This document shows, one piece after another, positions 27,998 through 35,676 of a stretch of 64,000 nucleotides of DNA. The DNA lies in the NCBI GenBank assembly GCA_030841105.1, contig JAVEDE010000012.1, forward strand, positions 7,079-71,078, written 5' to 3'. The stretch's first letter is position 1, and the number at the start of each line of letters is the position of its first letter. Origin of the DNA: Pyrinomonadaceae bacterium (GTDB taxonomy: Bacteria > Acidobacteriota > Blastocatellia > Pyrinomonadales > Pyrinomonadaceae). The notes beneath the pieces are model-generated. The model ran no database searches. It was not told the origin of the DNA and saw only the letters and a list, made by a program, of their open reading frames with translations. A program made the position numbers and the translations under genes.

Positions 27998-28048
27998 AAA
28001 GTGGCGTCCCGTACGGGAGTCGAACCCGTGTCGCCGCCGTGAAAGGGC
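27998..28048 (-). repeat. att direct repeat: displaced 3' fragment of tRNA-Glu (anticodon loop to CCA)
   Basis: Identical to 35597-35647. Upstream of 28048 the tRNA 5' half is missing, so this is not a functional tRNA. Confidence 0.9.
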
Positions 28049-28120: not shown

Positions 28121-28144
28121 TTCAACGTGTCCTTCAACGTGTCC
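28121..28144 (+). promoter_or_regulatory. Tandem 12-mers TTCAACGTGTCC x2 (candidate integrase arm-type sites)
   Basis: A perfect tandem copy. A related pair, GTGAACGTGTCC TTGAAAGTGTCC, lies at 35527-35550 at the other island end in the same orientation. Confidence 0.4.
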
Positions 28145-28165
28145 ATGATAATGGAGACACGAGCG

Positions 28166-29320
28166 ATGGCAAATGAGCGAAGCGGATACGTTTTCAAAGA
28201 CAAATCAGGCGCGTGGTATGCACGAACGACTATAACAGACCCTAGCGGCAAACGTCGAAATGTCAAAAGACGGGCAAAAGACAAGCAAGACGCTAAGCAG
28301 ATACTTAAAAGCATCCTGACAGAATTAGACGCAGAAGGTAGTAAATCAGTTGACTCGTCAAGGCTAACTTTCGACGATTTGGCGAACTTTTACGCGGCCA
28401 CCTTCTGCAAACCCGCCACATTTATTGACGGCAAAAAAACAGCAGGATTGCGAGACGTAGGACGAGCAAAAGGCTTCTTAGTTCGCTTTCGAGATTACTT
28501 TGGCAAGCGTTTGCTGCGAGATATTACGTACAGGGATATTTGCTCTTACAATGCAATGCGCTTGCAAATGCACACACACCATAAACGCTCGCCCACTATT
28601 GCGACCATGAATCGAGAGCTAGGCGTGTTGCGCCGAATCTTTAATATCGGTGTGCGCGAAGGCTGGCTATCAAAAAGCCCCTTCAATGGAGGCGAGTCGC
28701 TTATATCTCCTGCATCAGAGCGGAGACGTGAACGCATTCTTTCTTTGGAGGAAGAACAAAAGCTACTTGTTGCGTGTGAGCATCCGAATAGAAAACTCTT
28801 GAGAGTGTTGATTATCTGCTTGCTTGATACGGGCGCAAGAAAGTCCGAACTTGCAAAGCATTTACGATGGAGTGCGGTTTGTTTCGCTTCCCGCACAATT
28901 ACCATTGAAGGCACGACGACCAAAACTCTAAAGACAAGGCAACTGGCAATGACCGAGCGGATGTATCAAGAACTTTCAATGCTTTGGGAAGCATCCTCGA
29001 AAGCACTGCAAGAGAGAGTATTTGAGGGGTGGGTCAATGAACGATGGGCATTCGCTTTCGCGTGTAAGGAAGCCGGAATAGATTATGGTAGCCCGGAAGG
29101 AATAACCCTGCATTCGCTTCGTCACACAGCCGCTACGCGGCTTGTCAAAGGGCAGATGCCACTGCAAATGGTTGGTCGAATTCTAGGGCATTCTCAACCG
29201 CAAACAACCTACCGTTATCTTTCCGCCGATTCGGAAACTATCATCCAAGCGGCGGCAATATTAGAGGCTTTCCAGACACAGGCCAGCAAGCCTGTAGAAA
29301 ACTCAGAAGCAGTAAACTAA
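28166..29320 (+). CDS. Tyrosine-type site-specific recombinase/integrase
   Basis: Catalytic signature LLDTGARKSEL (R), HSLRHTAATRL (HxxR), LGHSQPQTTYRYL (H..Y). A SAM-like N-terminal domain is present. GGAG RBS before ATG 28166. Confidence 0.9.
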   Translation: MANERSGYVFKDKSGAWYARTTITDPSGKRRNVKRRAKDKQDAKQILKSILTELDAEGSKSVDSSRLTFDDLANFYAATFCKPATFIDGKKTAGLRDVGRAKGFLVRFRDYFGKRLLRDITYRDICSYNAMRLQMHTHHKRSPTIATMNRELGVLRRIFNIGVREGWLSKSPFNGGESLISPASERRRERILSLEEEQKLLVACEHPNRKLLRVLIICLLDTGARKSELAKHLRWSAVCFASRTITIEGTTTKTLKTRQLAMTERMYQELSMLWEASSKALQERVFEGWVNERWAFAFACKEAGIDYGSPEGITLHSLRHTAATRLVKGQMPLQMVGRILGHSQPQTTYRYLSADSETIIQAAAILEAFQTQASKPVENSEAVN

Positions 29321-29451: not shown

Positions 29452-29988
29452 TTATTTTGCGGTGCGTGGGCTGAGCGCAGAAACTATGTCATCCACTCTC
29501 TCAGGGTATGTTGCTTTGAGCTTCCTTAGAGCGTCTTTAATTATCCAATCAGTGTGAGGATTCTTCACCGATGCCCAAGCTCCGCAGACATTCAAGGTAA
29601 ACTCAGGGTGATAGTTGCCCGCGTTCCTCAGCACGTTAGCGACCGACTTCTTCACGTAAATACTTGCGTCGGCTTTGAGCCTTTCAAGCACGGGCAAAAC
29701 CTTCTCAGGCTCTTTACGAGCGACCCCCCTCAGTCCTTCGCTGGCGGCTCTCCTAATGTTCGGGTCGGCGTGGTCAGCCCAAAGAATCATTTCCTCGATA
29801 ATCTGGTCAGGCTGTTTCTTACCAACTTCGACAAGTATTGTGGCGGCGACTTCGCGCTCTTTCCAATCCGCGCTGCTGGCTAATCTCATTATCGCGGGGA
29901 ATGTCCGGCGCGGGTCAACGACCCCCTGCCGAACAATATCCGCCACGTCATATACTTTAGTGACCGTCGGTTTTGAATGAGTTGCCAT
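29452..29988 (-). CDS. HEAT-repeat protein (DNA alkylation repair AlkD-like family)
   Basis: Repeated helical HEAT-like units with DWKEREVAATIL, DPNIRRAASEGLR and YVKKSVANVLRN. Confidence 0.65.
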   Translation of the reverse strand: MATHSKPTVTKVYDVADIVRQGVVDPRRTFPAIMRLASSADWKEREVAATILVEVGKKQPDQIIEEMILWADHADPNIRRAASEGLRGVARKEPEKVLPVLERLKADASIYVKKSVANVLRNAGNYHPEFTLNVCGAWASVKNPHTDWIIKDALRKLKATYPERVDDIVSALSPRTAK

Positions 29989-30002
29989 TTCGCATCCGTA
30001 AC

Positions 30003-30311
30003 TCAGATGCCCCACTTATTTACAATCAGACCAATGATGAGACCGCCGACTGCTCCCAAGATGAGGATAGGAGCGTATGCCTTTGTAATGATGGCATCCG
30101 GCAGACTCAGCAGCACGCCGAAGATGAGACCCTGCGCCCAACCCGGCACGGGTAGCCGCGCCGCACCGATAACGAAGCCGATGGCGAAGCGGTTGAGGAA
30201 TGCCCCAAAGAGGGCGGCTCGCTTATCAGGGAAGGAGAGTGGGAGCATGGAGGCAACAGATAGTGCGCCATAGGCAAGACCGCAGATTGTACCGAGCAGG
30301 AGACGGGACAT
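30003..30311 (-). CDS. Small multi-pass membrane protein, hypothetical
   Basis: ~102 aa from MSRLLLGTICGLAYG with 3-4 hydrophobic segments. It lies 14 nt upstream of the HEAT gene start. Confidence 0.5.
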   Translation of the reverse strand: MSRLLLGTICGLAYGALSVASMLPLSFPDKRAALFGAFLNRFAIGFVIGAARLPVPGWAQGLIFGVLLSLPDAIITKAYAPILILGAVGGLIIGLIVNKWGI

Positions 30312-30632
30312 AAAGTGGAGGCCACAGATGGAGTAAGAGAGCGGGCAGATTAAAGCATAGCCGTCACTTTGCCAACAAGGGTAAGGCGGGTGATGAGATA
30401 CCAATAGTTCAAGTAAAACCCCTTTATAGGTCAAATACACGCAAACAAACGGGCATTCAGGGGCGATTAAAGCTCCCGAATGCCCGTTTTGCCTTTGGCT
30501 CTAAGTAAATATTTCTGCCGCCAAAATATTACCCATCAAGTTGGAAAAGAACTATTGACTTAACGGATTATGCCCCCGACAATTTATAGACAGGCAGGGA
30601 GTTTGTTAGAAGAAAGGGCTTGGTGGTCGTAC

Positions 30633-32471: not shown

Positions 32472-32678
32472 ATGGAAGAAAAGAAAATTACAAGCGCAAT
32501 TAGTGAAAGGCAGTTCGCGGCGGCAGTTAATCTAAGTTACGCGAAGGTGAAGCAAATGCGACAGAGAGGTCTAATTACTCATTCCAGAGTCGGGCGCAGG
32601 ATTCTCTATAAGTTTCCCGACCACGTTGAACTATTTCTTAGTAACTACGAGCAAGCCGCTTGCATTCATTCTCTGTAA
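32472..32678 (+). CDS. Excisionase/AlpA-like helix-turn-helix DNA-binding protein
   Basis: 68 aa. ...SERQFAAAVNLSYAKVKQMRQRGLITHSRVGRRILYKFPD resembles the excisionase-family HTH (..G.lp..r.GrrilF). Confidence 0.6.
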   Translation: MEEKKITSAISERQFAAAVNLSYAKVKQMRQRGLITHSRVGRRILYKFPDHVELFLSNYEQAACIHSL

Positions 32679-32715: not shown

Positions 32716-33651
32716 CTAGTCTCTATCCAGATTTAGCATCGTATTACAAAACTCTGCACCATGAGTCTGACACCAACAACTACCAAGTCTCCATGCAGTA
32801 TCAAAATCAAAAATGGGATTTGCTGAAACGTCAACCGGCTTCCACAAGTCCTTCTTAGTACCATACGGGCAACCGCATGTTTGACGAGCATGTTCATCAG
32901 TAATACGTTCATAGAAGCGGCTAGAAACTAACAGGTCGTCTGCCTCTCCAATAGCCGCTAATTTTGCAGCCATATTTACGGGCTTACCTGCCCATACCTC
33001 ATTTTGACGGTCTGTGCGTTGACTAATACGCCTTAACCCAAGCCTTCTTACTAGAACTGTCTTTTGGTCTATACCAATATGTGCGCCGAGGTCTAAACCT
33101 GTCTTATCCTTCATCGTAGGTGCAAATACCTTCGCTGCAAATGTCTTGAAACTAACTGCTGCGGCGAGAGCACGGTACACCTGATTACGATTGAACATTG
33201 CGAAAACTCCATCACCTCTTACATCTATATATGGGGCTTCAAAAGTGTCAAACAATCGAACTGCCGTACCCGTGAAAAATTGATAAGCTTTAGCTGTGCT
33301 TCGGTCATGCGTAATTGCGCTCAATTGAGTTGAATTTTTCATGTCAACGAAAACGCATGTTAGGTCTTGAATCTTAAGCCACCGAGGAGCATCAAGTGGG
33401 ATAGTGTTCGTGTCCGGTATCTCATCCACGCTAATAACATCTACCCCTTCCTTGAATTCCGCAGTTTGCTTTTCAATAACTGAGAGATATTGTTCAGGGA
33501 GTTGTGAAGAGTTTATAACGTGTCGTTTGATAGGGGCAGGGTCTTTCCAAAATTTAATCATAAGCCACCAATCCTTGTGAGCGATAACAAATAGCGAGGT
33601 TATTAGCGGTTTATAGCACCCTTTAGTTTCAATTGCAATACCCAGTTTCAT
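32716..33651 (-). CDS. Class III nucleotidyl cyclase-fold protein (Pycsar PycC-like candidate) with Cys-rich C-terminal extension
   Basis: Cyclase homology motifs are CVFVDMKNSTQL (metal Asp), DVRGDGVFAMF (GDG metal Asp) and IGIDQKTVLV...EVWAGKPVNMAAKLAA. The tail reads CGCPYG...SCWCQTHGAEFC. An alternative start is 33561. Confidence 0.65.
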   Translation of the reverse strand: MKLGIAIETKGCYKPLITSLFVIAHKDWWLMIKFWKDPAPIKRHVINSSQLPEQYLSVIEKQTAEFKEGVDVISVDEIPDTNTIPLDAPRWLKIQDLTCVFVDMKNSTQLSAITHDRSTAKAYQFFTGTAVRLFDTFEAPYIDVRGDGVFAMFNRNQVYRALAAAVSFKTFAAKVFAPTMKDKTGLDLGAHIGIDQKTVLVRRLGLRRISQRTDRQNEVWAGKPVNMAAKLAAIGEADDLLVSSRFYERITDEHARQTCGCPYGTKKDLWKPVDVSANPIFDFDTAWRLGSCWCQTHGAEFCNTMLNLDRD

Positions 33652-33706
33652 TGATGCAACGAAAAAAGGAAAGTCACTTTAAGGGATTGATTACGTAAAG
33701 AGTGAT

Positions 33707-34363
33707 TTATGAATGAGGTTGCGAGGTTAAATCAGCTTTATTAACACTTACATCTTGGGTTGCTGTGTCTTTGGTCGCTTCAATACTTACTGGCTTTGAA
33801 GGTGATTTTCGGGGTGTTTTAGGCTTTATCTTGTTCTTCGGCCTAATAAACATAAACGCTATGACGGCAAGAATCGGCGTCAAAATTCCTGCTACAGCGA
33901 ACCAAATTGCATAGCTAAAATAGTTATATTTGCTGAGAGTTATTTGCGAGTTGATAGTAATTTGTTGTGCATAATCGAATTCTAGCCTCGGATTCTTTGA
34001 CTCAGGCTCTTCATAACGTGTGCGTAATTCAGTTAGATACTCGTCCGGAGTGTACTTAGCTATATGTCCATAGAACAAAAGATTATCGGTTTCATGCCTG
34101 TCGTCTTTAGGCTTTGATTGCAAAATTTTAGTCTTAGGTATTACAGACAGGAGCGCAGCTAAAGCTGATAAGACAACGAAGAAAATAAACGAATGTAGAT
34201 AAATGTAGAGCCAAAGTGCCAGCCCATTATCTTTACTTAGAATTAAAGTTAGAGCACCAAACAAAGCGGCAGCATCGGCTGCAATGATTGCAGCATTCTT
34301 AGTCTCAGCGAATTTTAACCATTCATTTACGTTGGCGAAAATTCCTTTGAGTCGTTCTTCCAC
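33707..34363 (-). CDS. 3-TM effector-like membrane protein (Pycsar effector/DUF5706- or SLATT-like candidate)
   Basis: EWLKFAETKNAAIIAADAAALFGAL (TM1), TM2, a soluble segment with NLLFYGHIAKYTPDEY, then TM3 and a Lys/Pro-rich tail. Confidence 0.6.
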   Translation of the reverse strand: MEERLKGIFANVNEWLKFAETKNAAIIAADAAALFGALTLILSKDNGLALWLYIYLHSFIFFVVLSALAALLSVIPKTKILQSKPKDDRHETDNLLFYGHIAKYTPDEYLTELRTRYEEPESKNPRLEFDYAQQITINSQITLSKYNYFSYAIWFAVAGILTPILAVIAFMFIRPKNKIKPKTPRKSPSKPVSIEATKDTATQDVSVNKADLTSQPHS

Positions 34364-34385
34364 TGGATTGTGCTCCGATTATCCG

Positions 34386-34634
34386 TTAGGGCTTCGTCAG
34401 TCTTTTACCACTTACGTTTTTCTTCTTTTCTAAGACTCGAACGATTAAGTCTGCTGGCTCGCACCCTATCGCCTCACACAGAGTCTCAATAGTGTCCAGC
34501 CCAATCATCTTCATATCACCACGCCACAACCGCGCAGCCGTTCCGGGCGGGACGTTCATTCGCTTCTGTAGCTGATAGGCAGTTGTAATGCCTCGCGCTT
34601 CTGCCGCTTCTCTTATCCTTAGTTCAACAACCAT
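34386..34634 (-). CDS. XRE family helix-turn-helix transcriptional regulator
   Basis: 82 aa. LRIREAAEARGITTAYQLQKRMNVPPGTAARLWRGD...LDTIETLCEAIGCEPADL is a Cro/C1-type HTH. Confidence 0.75.
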   Translation of the reverse strand: MVVELRIREAAEARGITTAYQLQKRMNVPPGTAARLWRGDMKMIGLDTIETLCEAIGCEPADLIVRVLEKKKNVSGKRLTKP

Positions 34635-34685
34635 AAAACGCAGCATAGCACAAAAAATATTCGCAGAAAAGATGTTATTCTCTTG

Positions 34686-34691
34686 TATAAT
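34686..34691 (+). promoter_or_regulatory. Candidate -10 hexamer TATAAT in the divergent XRE/SWIM intergenic region
   Basis: cttgTATAATatt lies ~38 nt upstream of ATG 34729. No good -35 is present. Confidence 0.25.
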
Positions 34692-34728
34692 ATTATCAAA
34701 TCTGCTACTATTCCTTTGACAGTCGGGA

Positions 34729-35064
34729 ATGCCGACAACCTCAAAACCGGAGACAAGAACAGTGATTGAACTCATCAGCGCAGACCAACTAGCCAAAGCC
34801 ACTGAGCGAGCCAAAGCGGGCAACCTCTTCGTCCAGCCTACAAGTTTCCTTCGGCAATATCGTGTAGTCAACCGCGACAACGGCAATCAGTATTACGTTG
34901 ATTTCTTCGTTCGTAACGGCAAGCGATACGGTCAGTGTACGTGCAAGGCTGGAATGAATAACAGGCAATGCAAACATTTGAGCGTGGCGGCGGGCTACCA
35001 CGTTATGAGAATGGCAGCGAAACGCGAAGCCGAAAGAATTGCTTTGATGCCGCAAGCAGCCTAA
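34729..35064 (+). CDS. SWIM zinc finger domain protein
   Basis: YYVDFFVRNGKRYGQCTCKAGMNNRQCKHLSVAAGYH fits the CxCx(n)CxH SWIM signature. Confidence 0.65.
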   Translation: MPTTSKPETRTVIELISADQLAKATERAKAGNLFVQPTSFLRQYRVVNRDNGNQYYVDFFVRNGKRYGQCTCKAGMNNRQCKHLSVAAGYHVMRMAAKREAERIALMPQAA

Positions 35065-35135
35065 GCAAACGGAGAGGTAAGTGCTGGAACACTTGCCTCT
35101 CCTACACCTACTTTCCCAAAACCGGAGAAAATCAG

Positions 35136-35447
35136 ATGCGAGCAGAAATTACCACTACAGCAATAACCAACACAACGCCACGCTTCCTACTTGGGAAAAT
35201 GGTAATGACTCAAGGCGCGGCGGCAGCTTTAGATGAAGCCGGACAGTCGCCCTTTGAATTTCTGAACCGTCACCAGCGTGGGGATTGGGGCGAAGTTTGC
35301 GATGAGGATAGGCAGGAGAATCAACTATCATTGCGGAAAGGCTTCCGACTGCTTAGCGTTTATCATACTAAGAGGGGCGTGAAGCTTTATGTAATAACGG
35401 AGTGGGACAGGTCGGTAACAACGCTGCTATTGAGCGAAGATTACTGA
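35136..35447 (+). CDS. Conserved hypothetical protein of a plasmid/ICE-associated family (..RHQRGDWGEV..ITEWDRSVTTLLLSEDY)
   Basis: 103 aa with a GGAGA RBS. From memory, the motif pattern occurs in small proteins on plasmids and ICEs. I recall no family name. Confidence 0.6.
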   Translation: MRAEITTTAITNTTPRFLLGKMVMTQGAAAALDEAGQSPFEFLNRHQRGDWGEVCDEDRQENQLSLRKGFRLLSVYHTKRGVKLYVITEWDRSVTTLLLSEDY

Positions 35448-35600
35448 GCGGAATACAATTCAGGCGAGCCGCTTCCTCTGAGGCGGCTTAATCCTTAAAT
35501 TCGATATGTTGGAAGGTCAAGAAGGTGTGAACGTGTCCTTGAAAGTGTCCATCAACGAAAACAGCCACCTACGTGGCGGCTGTAACCTGTTGATATAAAG

Positions 35601-35676
<76 letters not shown>

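What the first reader, a model, noticed from the sequence alone, without database searches (positions are those of the whole stretch)
32716..34634. XRE regulator, 3-TM protein and class III cyclase: a Pycsar-like abortive-infection cassette with atypical layout
Three co-oriented genes lie on the mobile island.
- A Cro/C1-type HTH (34634-34386).
- A 218-aa protein with three TM helices (34363-33707). Its N-terminus (FAETKNAAIIAADAAAL) and its NLLFYGHIAKYTPDEY segment resemble what I remember of the Pycsar effector (ex-DUF5706)/SLATT-type membrane effectors.
- A ~280-311-aa protein (33651-32716) carrying the class III cyclase catalytic pattern: FVDMKNST, GDGVFAMF and VN.AAKL.
A cyclase paired with a membrane-disrupting effector is the logic of Pycsar (cCMP/cUMP) immunity. 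Three things differ from the canonical form as I recall it: the effector precedes the cyclase, a dedicated XRE gene leads the operon, and the cyclase has a Cys-rich tail. This is my best candidate in the window for a new or variant defence system.
Basis: partly seen in the sequence, partly recalled or inferred. Interest (0 to 1): 0.75.

Follow-up and report, generated by a model that had tools for sequence, protein, structure and literature searches.

The report
Ordinary clade-D Pycsar on tRNA-Glu island
This is a standard, already characterised type of anti-phage system (a cUMP-making Pycsar cyclase plus its three-helix membrane effector) carried as cargo on a small mobile island; the features that looked unusual are normal for its subfamily or belong to the island rather than to the system.

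Summary
The three ORFs exist as described, and the Pycsar assignment is correct.

- **Cyclase:** it matches the PADLOC PycC profile end to end (E 4e-111). It is 52% identical to AnPycC (PDB 8JSZ), the clade D uridylate cyclase shown experimentally to make cUMP.
- **TM protein:** it passes Pfam PycTM (55.6 bits; cut-off 27.2) and has three hydrophobic segments, the canonical PycTM form.

The "atypical layout" does not hold:

1. **Cys-rich tail:** this is the published clade D zinc ribbon. All four ligands are present.
2. **Gene order:** effector-before-cyclase occurs in 27 of the 45 closest related loci.
3. **XRE gene:** it is not a Pycsar component (0 of 66 related loci). It belongs to the backbone of a 7.6-kb integrative island at tRNA-Glu, bounded by perfect 51-nt direct repeats. 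Homologues at 77–90% identity sit in the same promoter module in other contigs. They are followed there by different defence cargo: Type I R-M, AIPR, GmrSD and a DpnI pair, plus an uncharacterised DUF4238 gene.

An orthologue with an in-frame stop shows the cyclase starts at Met31 and is 281 aa, not 311.

Verdict: a new member of a known kind, of low interest. The XRE-headed cargo slot is a modest side observation.

The parts
32716..33561 (-). pycC: clade D Pycsar uridylate cyclase, 281 aa from Met31. The mechanical ORF extends to 33651 (311 aa).
   Evidence: PADLOC PDLC00763 PycC E 4e-111, profile positions 2-266 of 268. PDB 8JSZ uridylate cyclase E 5e-82, 52% identity. Pfam Guanylate_cyc 23.6 bits, just above the 21.9 cut-off. 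For the start: L075 has TGA at codon 29, AAGGA lies 10 nt upstream of ATG 33561, and family conservation begins at residues 44-46.
32761..32877 (-). C-terminal zinc-binding ribbon of PycC. Ligands are C259, C261, C294 and H297 in 311-aa numbering (C229, C231, C264, H267 from Met31).
   Evidence: These align with AnPycC C221/C223/C260/H263. They are conserved in 41 of 42 close and 20 of 21 distant relatives. Their role is described in PMC11224242.
33202..33351 (-). Catalytic core of PycC. Metal-binding residues are D103 and D147. Pocket residues are F101, R145 and F150, equivalent to AnPycC F60, K104 and F109.
   Evidence: Residue mapping onto AnPycC. R at the K104 position is shared by 18 of 42 close relatives. 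Residue roles come from PMC11224242.
33707..34363 (-). pycTM: three-TM Pycsar effector, 218 aa, GTG start, with a basic ~45-aa C-terminal tail that aligns to none of the family profiles.
   Evidence: Pfam PF18967 PycTM E 8e-15, 55.6 bits against a 27.2 cut-off. PADLOC Effector 2TM PDLC00691 E 4e-49 and PycTM models down to 3e-31. Three hydrophobic segments, and a tail with 10 K/R against 4 D/E. The profile matches end at residues ~159-174. Family-conserved K22, P76, Q134 and K145 are present.
34386..34634 (-). XRE/Cro-C1 HTH gene, 82 aa. It is an island-backbone regulator and the first gene of the transcription unit that includes the Pycsar cargo.
   Evidence: Pfam HTH_26 E 9e-14. PHROG transcriptional repressor families. 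65 homologues at up to 95-100% identity. In seven sampled loci it is followed by non-Pycsar cargo, co-oriented and separated by gaps of 13-175 nt; in the eighth context (P0003) the neighbouring DpnI/methylase genes are convergent. Absent from 66 Pycsar loci.
34635..34728 (.). Conserved divergent promoter/operator region. It holds a sigma-70-like promoter for the XRE-Pycsar unit (-35 TTGATA at 34699, -10 TAACAT ending 34672) and a 10-bp palindrome, ATAATATTAT, over the -35.
   Evidence: This is the only sigma-70-like site on the minus strand upstream of the cassette. Palindrome. Long invariant blocks across 9 loci (alignment A3).
34729..35064 (+). Divergent 111-aa backbone gene with a Cys-rich CxC...CxH motif; function unknown.
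   Evidence: 60-81% aa identity to the gene in the same position in L069, L070 and L071. No Pfam, PHROG or PADLOC assignment.
35136..35447 (+). 103-aa backbone gene; function unknown. It occupies the position held by an ArdC-N gene in other islands.
   Evidence: 48-49% aa identity to the 106-aa genes of L070 and L072. ArdC-N sits at this position in L067, L069, L071 and L073.
35597..35676 (-). tRNA-Glu(UUC) gene, 35601-35676. Its 3' 47 nt lie inside the att direct repeat, 35597-35647.
   Evidence: ARAGORN. 51-nt perfect direct repeat.
27998..28048 (.). Distal att direct repeat: a duplicated 3' fragment of tRNA-Glu that marks the other island end.
   Evidence: 100% identical 51-nt repeat, 7599 nt from its partner. 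The GC drop starts here.
28127..29320 (+). Tyrosine integrase of the island.
   Evidence: Pfam Phage_integrase E 2e-21.
32472..32678 (+). Small HTH_17-type ORF, 68 aa, convergent with pycC. Probably the island excisionase or a regulator.
   Evidence: Pfam HTH_17 E 0.007, below the cut-off. PADLOC mad1 HTH E 2.5e-5. Weak evidence only.

Best explanation
The cassette is a canonical two-gene clade D Pycsar anti-phage system, pycTM followed by pycC. It is cargo on a 7.6-kb integrative island inserted in the 3' end of tRNA-Glu.

Mechanism, inferred from characterised homologues:
1. On phage infection the PycC homodimer cyclises UTP to 3',5'-cUMP. Its fold is stabilised by a C-terminal Cys3His zinc ribbon, and it uses two metal-binding Asp residues.
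2. cUMP activates the three-TM effector PycTM, which oligomerises in the inner membrane and compromises it.
3. The infected cell stops growing or dies before phage are released (abortive infection).

The XRE gene is not part of Pycsar. It is the conserved first gene of a cargo slot in a family of islands whose few named members are acidobacterial. It shares a conserved divergent promoter/operator region with two small backbone genes. Different defence systems are found directly downstream of it in different islands.

Transcription of the Pycsar genes most likely starts at the XRE promoter, so the XRE protein probably sets their basal expression by autorepression.

Shown here: family membership, residue conservation, island borders, backbone-versus-cargo structure, the start codon. 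Inferred: the nucleotide made, the effector's action, co-transcription and repression.
For: Cyclase:
- PADLOC PycC E 4e-111 over the full profile.
- PDB 8JSZ 'uridylate cyclase' E 5e-82, 52% identity. 8JSZ/AnPycC makes cUMP, needs its zinc ligands, and protects E. coli together with AnPycTM (PMC11224242).
- D103/D147, F101/F150 and the C259/C261/C294/H297 ligands are all conserved.

Effector:
- Pfam PycTM above cut-off, and PADLOC effector/PycTM models.
- Three TM segments, as described for PycTM.
- A PycTM-like ORF lies beside the cyclase in 56 of 66 related loci.

Integrity: against the 90%-identical orthologue L075, codon changes are 21 synonymous to 20 non-synonymous in pycTM and 16 to 5 in the XRE gene, with no frameshifts.

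Island: 51-nt direct repeats, tRNA-Glu, integrase and a GC drop.

XRE as backbone:
- 0 of 66 Pycsar loci have it, and no HTH family recurs in 62 upstream neighbours.
- Eight homologue contexts carry Type I R-M (four times), AIPR, DpnI with a methylase, DUF4238, and GmrSD.
- DNA homology to seven of these loci (the eighth returned no DNA) covers only the XRE gene, the intergenic region and, where the two share it, the divergent gene or genes (window 34415 to at most 35179). On the cargo side it ends at 34415-34449 in all seven.

Single transcription unit: the XRE-pycTM gap is 22 nt, the only sigma-70-like promoter is upstream of the XRE gene, and no terminator was predicted between the genes.
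Against: - No experiment supports any functional step here. The nucleotide product, phage protection and toxicity are all extrapolated.
- The pocket residue equivalent to AnPycC K104 is Arg. This is shared by 18 of 42 close relatives but has not been tested biochemically.
- AnPycC S195 and K246, which contact glycerol in the crystal, are Ala and Ile here.
- The pycTM-pycC spacer is unusually long: 145 nt to Met31, against -52 to about +195 nt in relatives. An internal promoter cannot be excluded.
- L075 and L076 show the XRE and Pycsar genes travelling together at about 90% identity next to a different divergent gene. The XRE-Pycsar linkage is therefore stable in at least one lineage and could be functionally adapted.
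- The promoter call is a consensus match in an AT-rich stretch.
Confidence: 0.82

Rival explanations
1. The XRE protein is a dedicated, co-evolved third component of a three-gene Pycsar variant. It would work like CapW/BrxR or RptR: it holds the toxic operon off until infection.
For: The gene is co-oriented, 22 nt upstream of pycTM, and lies behind the only predicted promoter. The XRE-PycTM-PycC arrangement recurs at about 90% identity in two other samples, beside a different divergent gene. Regulator-first defence operons are an established pattern (RptR, PMC12255303).
Against: None of 66 related Pycsar loci has a homologue, and no HTH family recurs among 62 upstream neighbours. Homologues at 77-90% identity head unrelated cargo in eight of eight sampled contexts. 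Homology with those loci ends inside the XRE 3' end. XRE relatives reach 80-95% identity, while the best Pycsar relative among GTDB species representatives is about 57%, which indicates separate histories.
Confidence: 0.12
2. The system is Pycsar-like but signals with a nucleotide other than cUMP (cCMP, or cGMP as in 'Pucsar'), because of the Lys-to-Arg change in the base pocket.
For: R145 replaces AnPycC K104, one of three residues shown to be needed for cUMP synthesis. Pycsar-related cyclases have diversified in nucleotide specificity through a few pocket residues (bioRxiv 10.64898/2026.08.12.744502).
Against: The protein is 52% identical to a proven cUMP synthase. F101 and F150 are conserved, and K and R alternate freely within the close family (23 K, 18 R), which suggests equivalence. 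Clades A-D are reported to make cUMP and only clade E makes cCMP. Pycsar-1 to Pycsar-3 models favour UTP. PDB hits at E<=1 are only AnPycC and BcPycC, both uridylate cyclases.
Confidence: 0.1
3. The cyclase is an ordinary class III signalling adenylate/guanylate cyclase, and the neighbouring membrane protein is unrelated to it.
For: The generic Pfam Guanylate_cyc hit barely passes its cut-off (23.6 against 21.9 bits). NCBIfam has no specific model for either protein.
Against: The PycC-specific profiles score about 350 bits higher than the generic family. The zinc ribbon specific to clade D PycC is present. The neighbour is a bona fide PycTM. The cyclase-PycTM pairing recurs in 56 of 66 loci across many phyla. 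The genes sit on a mobile island.
Confidence: 0.02
4. The cassette is a decaying, non-functional remnant carried passively by the island.
For: The pycTM-pycC spacer is long, at 145 nt. PycTM has an extra low-complexity tail. A misleading upstream ORF extension exists.
Against: Both ORFs are intact and keep all tested catalytic, zinc-binding and family-conserved residues. Comparison with L075 shows about as many synonymous as non-synonymous codon changes in pycTM, which implies purifying selection, and no frameshifts.
Confidence: 0.05

Closest known systems
Anabaena sp. Pycsar (AnPycC, PDB 8JSZ, plus AnPycTM): clade D, cUMP-signalling (Hou et al. 2024, PMC11224242)
   Same: 52% identity across the whole cyclase. 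Same metal-binding Asp pair, same F/F pocket residues, same Cys3His zinc ribbon, same length (~280 aa), and the same partner type, a short TM-only PycTM.
   Different: K104 is Arg here. S195 and K246 differ. The effector gene is upstream rather than downstream of the cyclase; the cyanobacterial loci in my set have it downstream. The PycTM has an extra basic tail of about 45 aa.
Pycsar in general: PycC plus PycTM or PycTIR (Tal et al. 2021, as summarised in PMC11224242 and bioRxiv 10.64898/2026.08.12.744502)
   Same: A two-gene cyclase-effector architecture with a 3TM 'pJV1-spdB3 family' effector and abortive-infection logic.
   Different: Nothing essential. The founding paper was not available to read, so the comparison with its figures is indirect.
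Pucsar: the cGMP-producing offshoot of Pycsar with PucTIR/PucTM effectors (bioRxiv 10.64898/2026.08.12.744502)
   Same: Same overall architecture and the same 3TM effector family. PucTM is reported to form a cylindrical hexamer, which suggests how PycTM may assemble.
   Different: The window cyclase groups by sequence with a proven uridylate cyclase, and the only other PDB match at E<=1 is BcPycC. The zinc ribbon is not mentioned for Pucsar (0 occurrences of 'zinc').
RptR, the 79-aa autorepressor encoded as the first gene of an E. coli defence island and often upstream of Type I R-M (PMC12255303); also C-proteins of Type II R-M and CapW/BrxR
   Same: A small DNA-binding protein encoded first in a defence operon, behind a promoter with short palindromes, and frequently followed by Type I R-M. 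Four of eight XRE contexts here have Type I R-M.
   Different: No detectable sequence relationship: the only PDB hit for the window XRE is ClgR at E 0.035. The window protein is a classical HTH_26 fold. Repression has not been shown here. This XRE is tied to a mobile-element backbone rather than to one defence family.
Defence-cargo hotspots of integrative elements (P4-like satellites and SXT ICE hotspots, from my own knowledge; pipolins, PMC11551731)
   Same: A conserved mobile-element backbone with a fixed position where different defence systems are swapped in.
   Different: The element family differs: its few named members are Pyrinomonadaceae or Acidobacteria, it integrates at a tRNA, and ArdC-N or small-gene modules sit next to the slot. 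The slot lies directly behind a conserved regulator and its promoter.

Membership tests
Pycsar system | A PycC-type class III nucleotide cyclase that matches PycC-specific profiles | tested here: met
   PADLOC PDLC00763 E 4e-111, profile positions 2-266 of 268. 12 PycC models hit in total.
Pycsar system | Catalytic metal-binding Asp pair (AnPycC D62/D106) | tested here: met
   D103 and D147 are present. They are conserved in 39 and 42 of 42 close relatives.
Pycsar system | Adjacent cyclic-nucleotide-activated effector (PycTM or PycTIR) in the same orientation | tested here: met
   Pfam PF18967 PycTM 55.6 bits against a 27.2 cut-off. PADLOC effector E 4e-49. The gene is immediately upstream on the same strand.
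Pycsar system | Synthesis of a cyclic pyrimidine mononucleotide (cUMP or cCMP) | not testable with these tools
   Inferred only, from 52% identity to AnPycC, which makes cUMP.
Pycsar system | Protection against phage by abortive infection | not testable with these tools
   Shown for AnPycsar in E. coli, not for this locus.
Clade D PycC (uridylate cyclase with zinc ribbon) | C-terminal zinc ribbon with ligands C-x-C ... C-x2-H | tested here: met
   C259, C261, C294 and H297 align with AnPycC C221, C223, C260 and H263.
Clade D PycC (uridylate cyclase with zinc ribbon) | UTP-pocket residues F60, K104 and F109 | tested here: inconclusive
   F101 and F150 are conserved. The K104 equivalent is R145, as in 18 of 42 close relatives (23 have K). 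The effect on specificity is unknown.
PycTM (pJV1-spdB3 family 3TM effector) | Three transmembrane helices, no soluble cNMP-binding domain, and family-conserved residues | tested here: met
   Three hydrophobic segments. Only PycTM passes a Pfam cut-off. K22, P76, Q134 and K145, each conserved in 84-95% of 56 homologues, are present.
Pucsar (cGMP branch) | Cyclase belongs to the Pucsar subclade, with purine-recognising pocket residues (PfPucC E118/K195) | not tested
   No PfPucC sequence was at hand. Indirectly unlikely: the best solved relative is a uridylate cyclase, and the only other PDB match at E<=1 is BcPycC.
   tblastn found the XRE in 0 of 66 loci. No HTH_3, HTH_26 or HTH_31 family recurs among 62 upstream neighbours. 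XRE homologues head other cargo in 8 of 8 sampled contexts.
RptR-type defence-island repressors | Sequence or structural homology to RptR | tested here: not met
   No RptR chain appears among PDB hits at E<=1; the only hit is ClgR at 0.035. I assumed the RptR crystal structure described in PMC12255303 is in the PDB copy searched and did not verify this. The resemblance is functional and positional only.
tRNA-targeting integrative genomic island | Direct repeats that duplicate the tRNA 3' end, a tyrosine integrase, and atypical composition | tested here: met
   51-nt perfect direct repeats. tRNA-Glu. Phage_integrase E 2e-21. GC 41-53% against about 65%.

The most novel reading that the evidence does not exclude
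The conserved XRE gene and its divergent promoter/operator form a portable 'expression head' for a defence-cargo slot in a family of integrative elements whose few named members are acidobacterial. Whatever system recombines in behind the XRE gene (Pycsar here; Type I R-M, AIPR, GmrSD, a DpnI pair and others elsewhere) would come under the same element-encoded repressor. This could allow timed or infection-responsive expression of toxic cargo. It would be a backbone-encoded counterpart of RptR, C-proteins or BrxR that is generic rather than system-specific.
Probability: 0.4. Interest if true: 0.45.

Novelty: new member of a known kind. Interest (0 to 1): 0.22.

Why it matters
For Pycsar biology it matters little. 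It adds one more clade D PycC-PycTM pair, in a high-GC genome that acquired it on a low-GC island. It confirms that the zinc ribbon and the effector-first order are family norms.

It is useful as a calibration point. A cassette that looked like a layout variant by eye resolves into a textbook system plus mobile-element backbone once related loci are compared.

The side observation may interest people who study how defence cargo is exchanged and regulated outside Proteobacteria. A conserved XRE/promoter module is followed by interchangeable defence systems, with the homology break at one position inside the 3' end of the XRE gene. It gives a concrete handle, the XRE gene, for mining further cargo, possibly including unknown systems, from soil metagenomes.

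Tried and rejected
- **Exact-sequence look-up of the PycTM protein:** not on record.
- **Founding Pycsar paper (Tal et al. 2021):** not held under its DOI or PMC id. The 'canonical' gene order was therefore assessed from my own census of 66 loci.
- **NCBIfam:** no specific model for any of the three proteins.
- **PDB sequence search with PycTM:** no hit even at E<=10.
- **PADLOC, PHROGs and Pfam on the other island ORFs:** no second defence system. There were only weak HEAT/DNA_alkylation and HTH_17/mad1 hits.
- **Host identity:** a flanking chromosomal protein was found only on an unnamed Logan contig from the same sample. The host stays undetermined. The XRE relatives that carry names are Pyrinomonadaceae or Acidobacteria.
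- **Conserved recombination signature at the backbone/cargo junction:** none found. Homology simply fades within the last ~15 codons of the XRE gene.
- **RptR homology for the XRE:** none found.
- **K104-to-R substitution as a sign of new specificity:** rejected as special to this locus, because 18 of 42 close relatives share it.
- **The 311-aa reading of the cyclase:** rejected because of the in-frame stop in L075.
- **Not run:** structure prediction, fold search and the large protein searches on the Pycsar genes. At 52% identity to a solved, characterised homologue they could not change the verdict.
Full report
**1. Observation**

- The 82-aa protein (34634-34386) is a Cro/C1-type HTH (Pfam HTH_26 E 9e-14, HTH_3 E 5e-5).
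- The 218-aa protein (34363-33707) has a GTG start preceded by GGAG. It has three hydrophobic segments, at about residues 23-44, 46-81 and 148-175, followed by a basic 45-aa tail.
- The 311-aa ORF (33651-32716) carries the quoted class III cyclase motifs.

The 'mobile island' is real and can be delimited:

- GC falls from about 65% to 41-53% between 28 and 36 kb.
- A perfect 51-nt direct repeat lies at 27998-28048 and 35597-35647. It duplicates the 3' part of a tRNA-Glu(UUC) gene at 35601-35676.
- A tyrosine integrase lies at 28127-29320.

The island is therefore about 7.6 kb. Metagenome contigs from the same sample (100% identical) break at this repeat.

**2. What the two core genes are**

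Cyclase:

- It matches the PADLOC PycC model PDLC00763 at E 4e-111 over positions 2-266 of 268, plus eleven other PycC models.
- The generic Pfam cyclase domain only just passes its cut-off (23.6 against 21.9 bits). This is why the protein looks like a plain class III cyclase on casual inspection.
- Against the PDB, the best hit is 8JSZ 'uridylate cyclase' at E 5e-82 over residues 53-310. The next is 7R65 (BcPycC) at E 1e-5.
- 8JSZ is AnPycC from Anabaena, a clade D PycC. Hou et al. 2024 show four things about it: it makes cUMP; its zinc ligands C221/C223/C260/H263 form a 'zinc-binding ribbon' conserved in clade D only; a triple alanine mutant of three of those ligands (C221A/C223A/C260A) abolishes cUMP synthesis and phage defence; and F60/K104/F109 line the UTP pocket (PMC11224242).

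I aligned the window protein with AnPycC and 63 relatives. It keeps:

- F101, D103, D147 and F150;
- all four zinc ligands: C259, C261, C294 and H297.

The K104 position is Arg, as in 18 of 42 close relatives; 23 have Lys. Overall identity to AnPycC is 52%.

TM protein:

- It passes Pfam PF18967 'Pycsar effector protein' (55.6 bits; cut-off 27.2).
- It matches PADLOC effector and PycTM models down to E 4e-49.
- A 2026 preprint describes PycTM as a 'pJV1-spdB3 family three-transmembrane (3TM)' protein. Three helices is therefore the standard form.
- The residues most conserved among 56 homologues (K22, P76, Q134, K145) are present.

**3. Start codon of the cyclase**

- L075 is a contig from another sample with 90.7% DNA identity across window 33505-34817. 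It has TGA at codon 29 of the long reading, immediately before Met31.
- ATG 33561 (Met31) has AAGGA 10 nt upstream.
- Family conservation starts at residues 44-46, and family ORFs are typically 265-299 aa.

The cyclase is therefore 281 aa (33561-32716), essentially the length of AnPycC (280 aa). This leaves a 145-nt spacer after pycTM, which is longer than in most relatives.

**4. The three 'atypical' features**

(a) *Cys-rich tail.* It is the published clade D zinc ribbon.

(b) *Effector before cyclase.* A scan of GTDB species representatives gave 66 loci with relatives of the cyclase, at 34-60% identity, spread over many phyla. An HMM iterated from the window PycTM finds a PycTM-like ORF beside the cyclase in 56 of them.

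| Set of loci | Effector upstream | Effector downstream | None found |
|---|---|---|---|
| 45 closest | 27 | 14 | 4 |
| All 66 | 28 | 28 | 10 |

The downstream cases are mainly cyanobacteria and a distant Dehalococcoidia/Caldilineaceae branch. Effector-first is thus the commonest order among the nearest relatives.

(c) *Leading XRE gene.*

- tblastn with the XRE protein hits none of the 66 loci.
- Pfam scans of the 62 genes immediately upstream of these operons show no recurrent HTH family. The most frequent family is a DNA methylase, in 4 of 62.
- By contrast the XRE protein has 65 homologues, many at 80-95% identity. The few that carry names are from Pyrinomonadaceae or Acidobacteria.

**5. 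What the XRE gene belongs to**

I looked at eight contigs that encode homologues with 77-90% identity. In each, the XRE gene is followed by different cargo:

- Type I R-M in four contigs (L067, L069, L071, L073);
- an AIPR abortive-infection protein (L068);
- a DpnI/methylase pair, which is convergent with the XRE gene (P0003 context);
- a DUF4238 protein (L070);
- a 166-aa protein plus GmrSD (L072).

In the seven co-oriented cases the gaps are 13-175 nt. In the six contexts where the contig extends upstream, the XRE gene faces a divergent small gene, followed by either an ArdC-N gene (four loci) or a ~106-aa gene (two loci).

DNA homology between the window and the seven loci that returned DNA (73-86% identity):

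- It starts at window 34415-34449 in all seven, just inside the 3' end of the XRE gene.
- It runs through the intergenic region and, where the two share it, the divergent gene or genes, to at most 35179.
- No conserved junction motif was found; similarity fades over the last ~15 codons.

The window's divergent 111-aa and 103-aa genes have counterparts in subsets of these loci.

The intergenic region is very conserved across nine loci. The conserved elements include the -35 TTGATA, a TAATAT -10 (TAACAT in the window), and a TGnTATGCT element 7 nt before the XRE ATG. The last of these might indicate a leaderless transcript. The only sigma-70-like promoter on the minus strand near the cassette is this one (34699-34672). 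A 10-bp palindrome overlaps its -35.

The simplest reading is that the XRE gene and promoter are island backbone that heads an exchangeable cargo slot, and Pycsar is the cargo here.

The slot-plus-Pycsar combination is not unique to this window. L075 and L076 carry a 95%-identical XRE, the same 22-nt gap and a 91%-identical 218-aa PycTM, next to a different divergent gene. Against L075, codon changes are 21 synonymous to 20 non-synonymous in pycTM and 16 to 5 in the XRE gene, with no frameshifts. This is consistent with purifying selection.

**6. Mechanism, with what is shown and what is inferred**

*Shown here:*
- family membership;
- conservation of catalytic, pocket and zinc residues;
- pairing of cyclase and effector;
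- island borders;
- the backbone/cargo structure.

*Inferred from AnPycsar and other characterised systems:*
- On infection it makes 3',5'-cUMP from UTP.
- cUMP activates PycTM, which oligomerises in the membrane. The related PucTM is a cylindrical hexamer.
- PycTM disrupts membrane integrity and causes abortive infection.

What triggers PycC on infection is unknown for the whole family.

*Inferred from anatomy:* XRE, pycTM and pycC are transcribed from the XRE promoter, and the XRE protein autorepresses it. The closest functional analogue is RptR, a 79-aa autorepressor encoded first in a defence island and often upstream of Type I R-M (PMC12255303). No sequence relationship to it was detected.

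**7. Rivals**

- *Dedicated XRE component of a three-gene variant:* disfavoured. The stable linkage in L075 and L076 keeps a small probability alive.
- *A different nucleotide product because of R145:* possible but unlikely, given the free K/R alternation in the family.
- *An ordinary signalling cyclase:* effectively refuted.
- *A decayed remnant:* disfavoured by intact residues and the substitution pattern.

**8. Novelty and score**

This is a new member of a known, experimentally characterised kind: clade D Pycsar with PycTM. None of the proposed deviations survives comparison with relatives and the literature. Interest is low.

The XRE-headed cargo slot is a modest, separate observation. 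Cargo hotspots on integrative elements are a known concept, and so are regulator-first defence operons. This particular element family and its fixed junction behind a conserved repressor gene have not, to my knowledge, been described. They could be mined for new cargo.

Noticed in passing
window 34415-35447; loci L067-L073, L075, L076: A conserved backbone module (XRE gene, divergent promoter region, a small divergent gene, then an ArdC-N or ~105-aa gene) heads a slot with interchangeable defence cargo. The cargo seen: Type I R-M four times, AIPR, DpnI with a methylase, DUF4238, GmrSD, and Pycsar. The DNA homology break is always at window 34415-34449.
   Followed up: yes
window 28124-28146 and 35530-35564: Tandem 12-nt motifs (AACGTGTCCxTx) lie just inside both island ends, in the same orientation. 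They may be arm-type integrase binding sites. The copy at 28124 overlaps the mechanical GTG start of the integrase ORF, so the true integrase start is probably further downstream.
   Followed up: no
L003, L004, L005, L007, L036, L037, L044 (gene between cyclase and PycTM): Seven related loci carry a second, different PycC-type cyclase (PADLOC PDLC02368, E down to 1e-87) between the clade D cyclase and the PycTM gene. They are therefore two-cyclase, one-effector operons. The 2026 Pucsar preprint already mentions multi-cyclase loci in its Pycsar-1 subclade.
   Followed up: partly
window 34640-34665: A conserved TGnTATGCT element, resembling an extended -10, ends 7 nt before the XRE ATG in all nine aligned loci, and no Shine-Dalgarno sequence precedes that ATG. 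The XRE mRNA may be leaderless, like lambda cI from P_RM.
   Followed up: no
window 29452-30440 (minus strand): Two overlapping island genes of unknown role: a 187-aa HEAT-repeat / DNA_alkylation-like protein (Pfam E 4e-8) and a 145-aa hydrophobic protein with no family. They could be further cargo. PADLOC gives only marginal HEAT hits.
   Followed up: partly
window 35626-35647; L074 and L077: Two short contigs from one public run (SRR24474201) are 100% identical to the window and end at or inside the att repeat. This fits an assembly break at the repeat, or a population mixed for presence of the island.
   Followed up: no
L067 14379-15717; L068 5954-8265: In two islands that share the XRE module, a TIR_2/Y4lF-domain protein sits next to a DUF4113 / UmuC-like (IMS) gene. 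This looks like another recurrent pair on these elements.
   Followed up: no
window 33562-33706: The pycTM-pycC spacer is 145 nt, unusually long for this family, where the genes usually overlap or lie within about 20 nt. It contains the spurious 30-codon extension of the cyclase ORF. Only its cyclase-proximal ~55 nt were compared with L075 in register, and those are well conserved. The scan found no sigma-70-like promoter in the spacer.
   Followed up: partly
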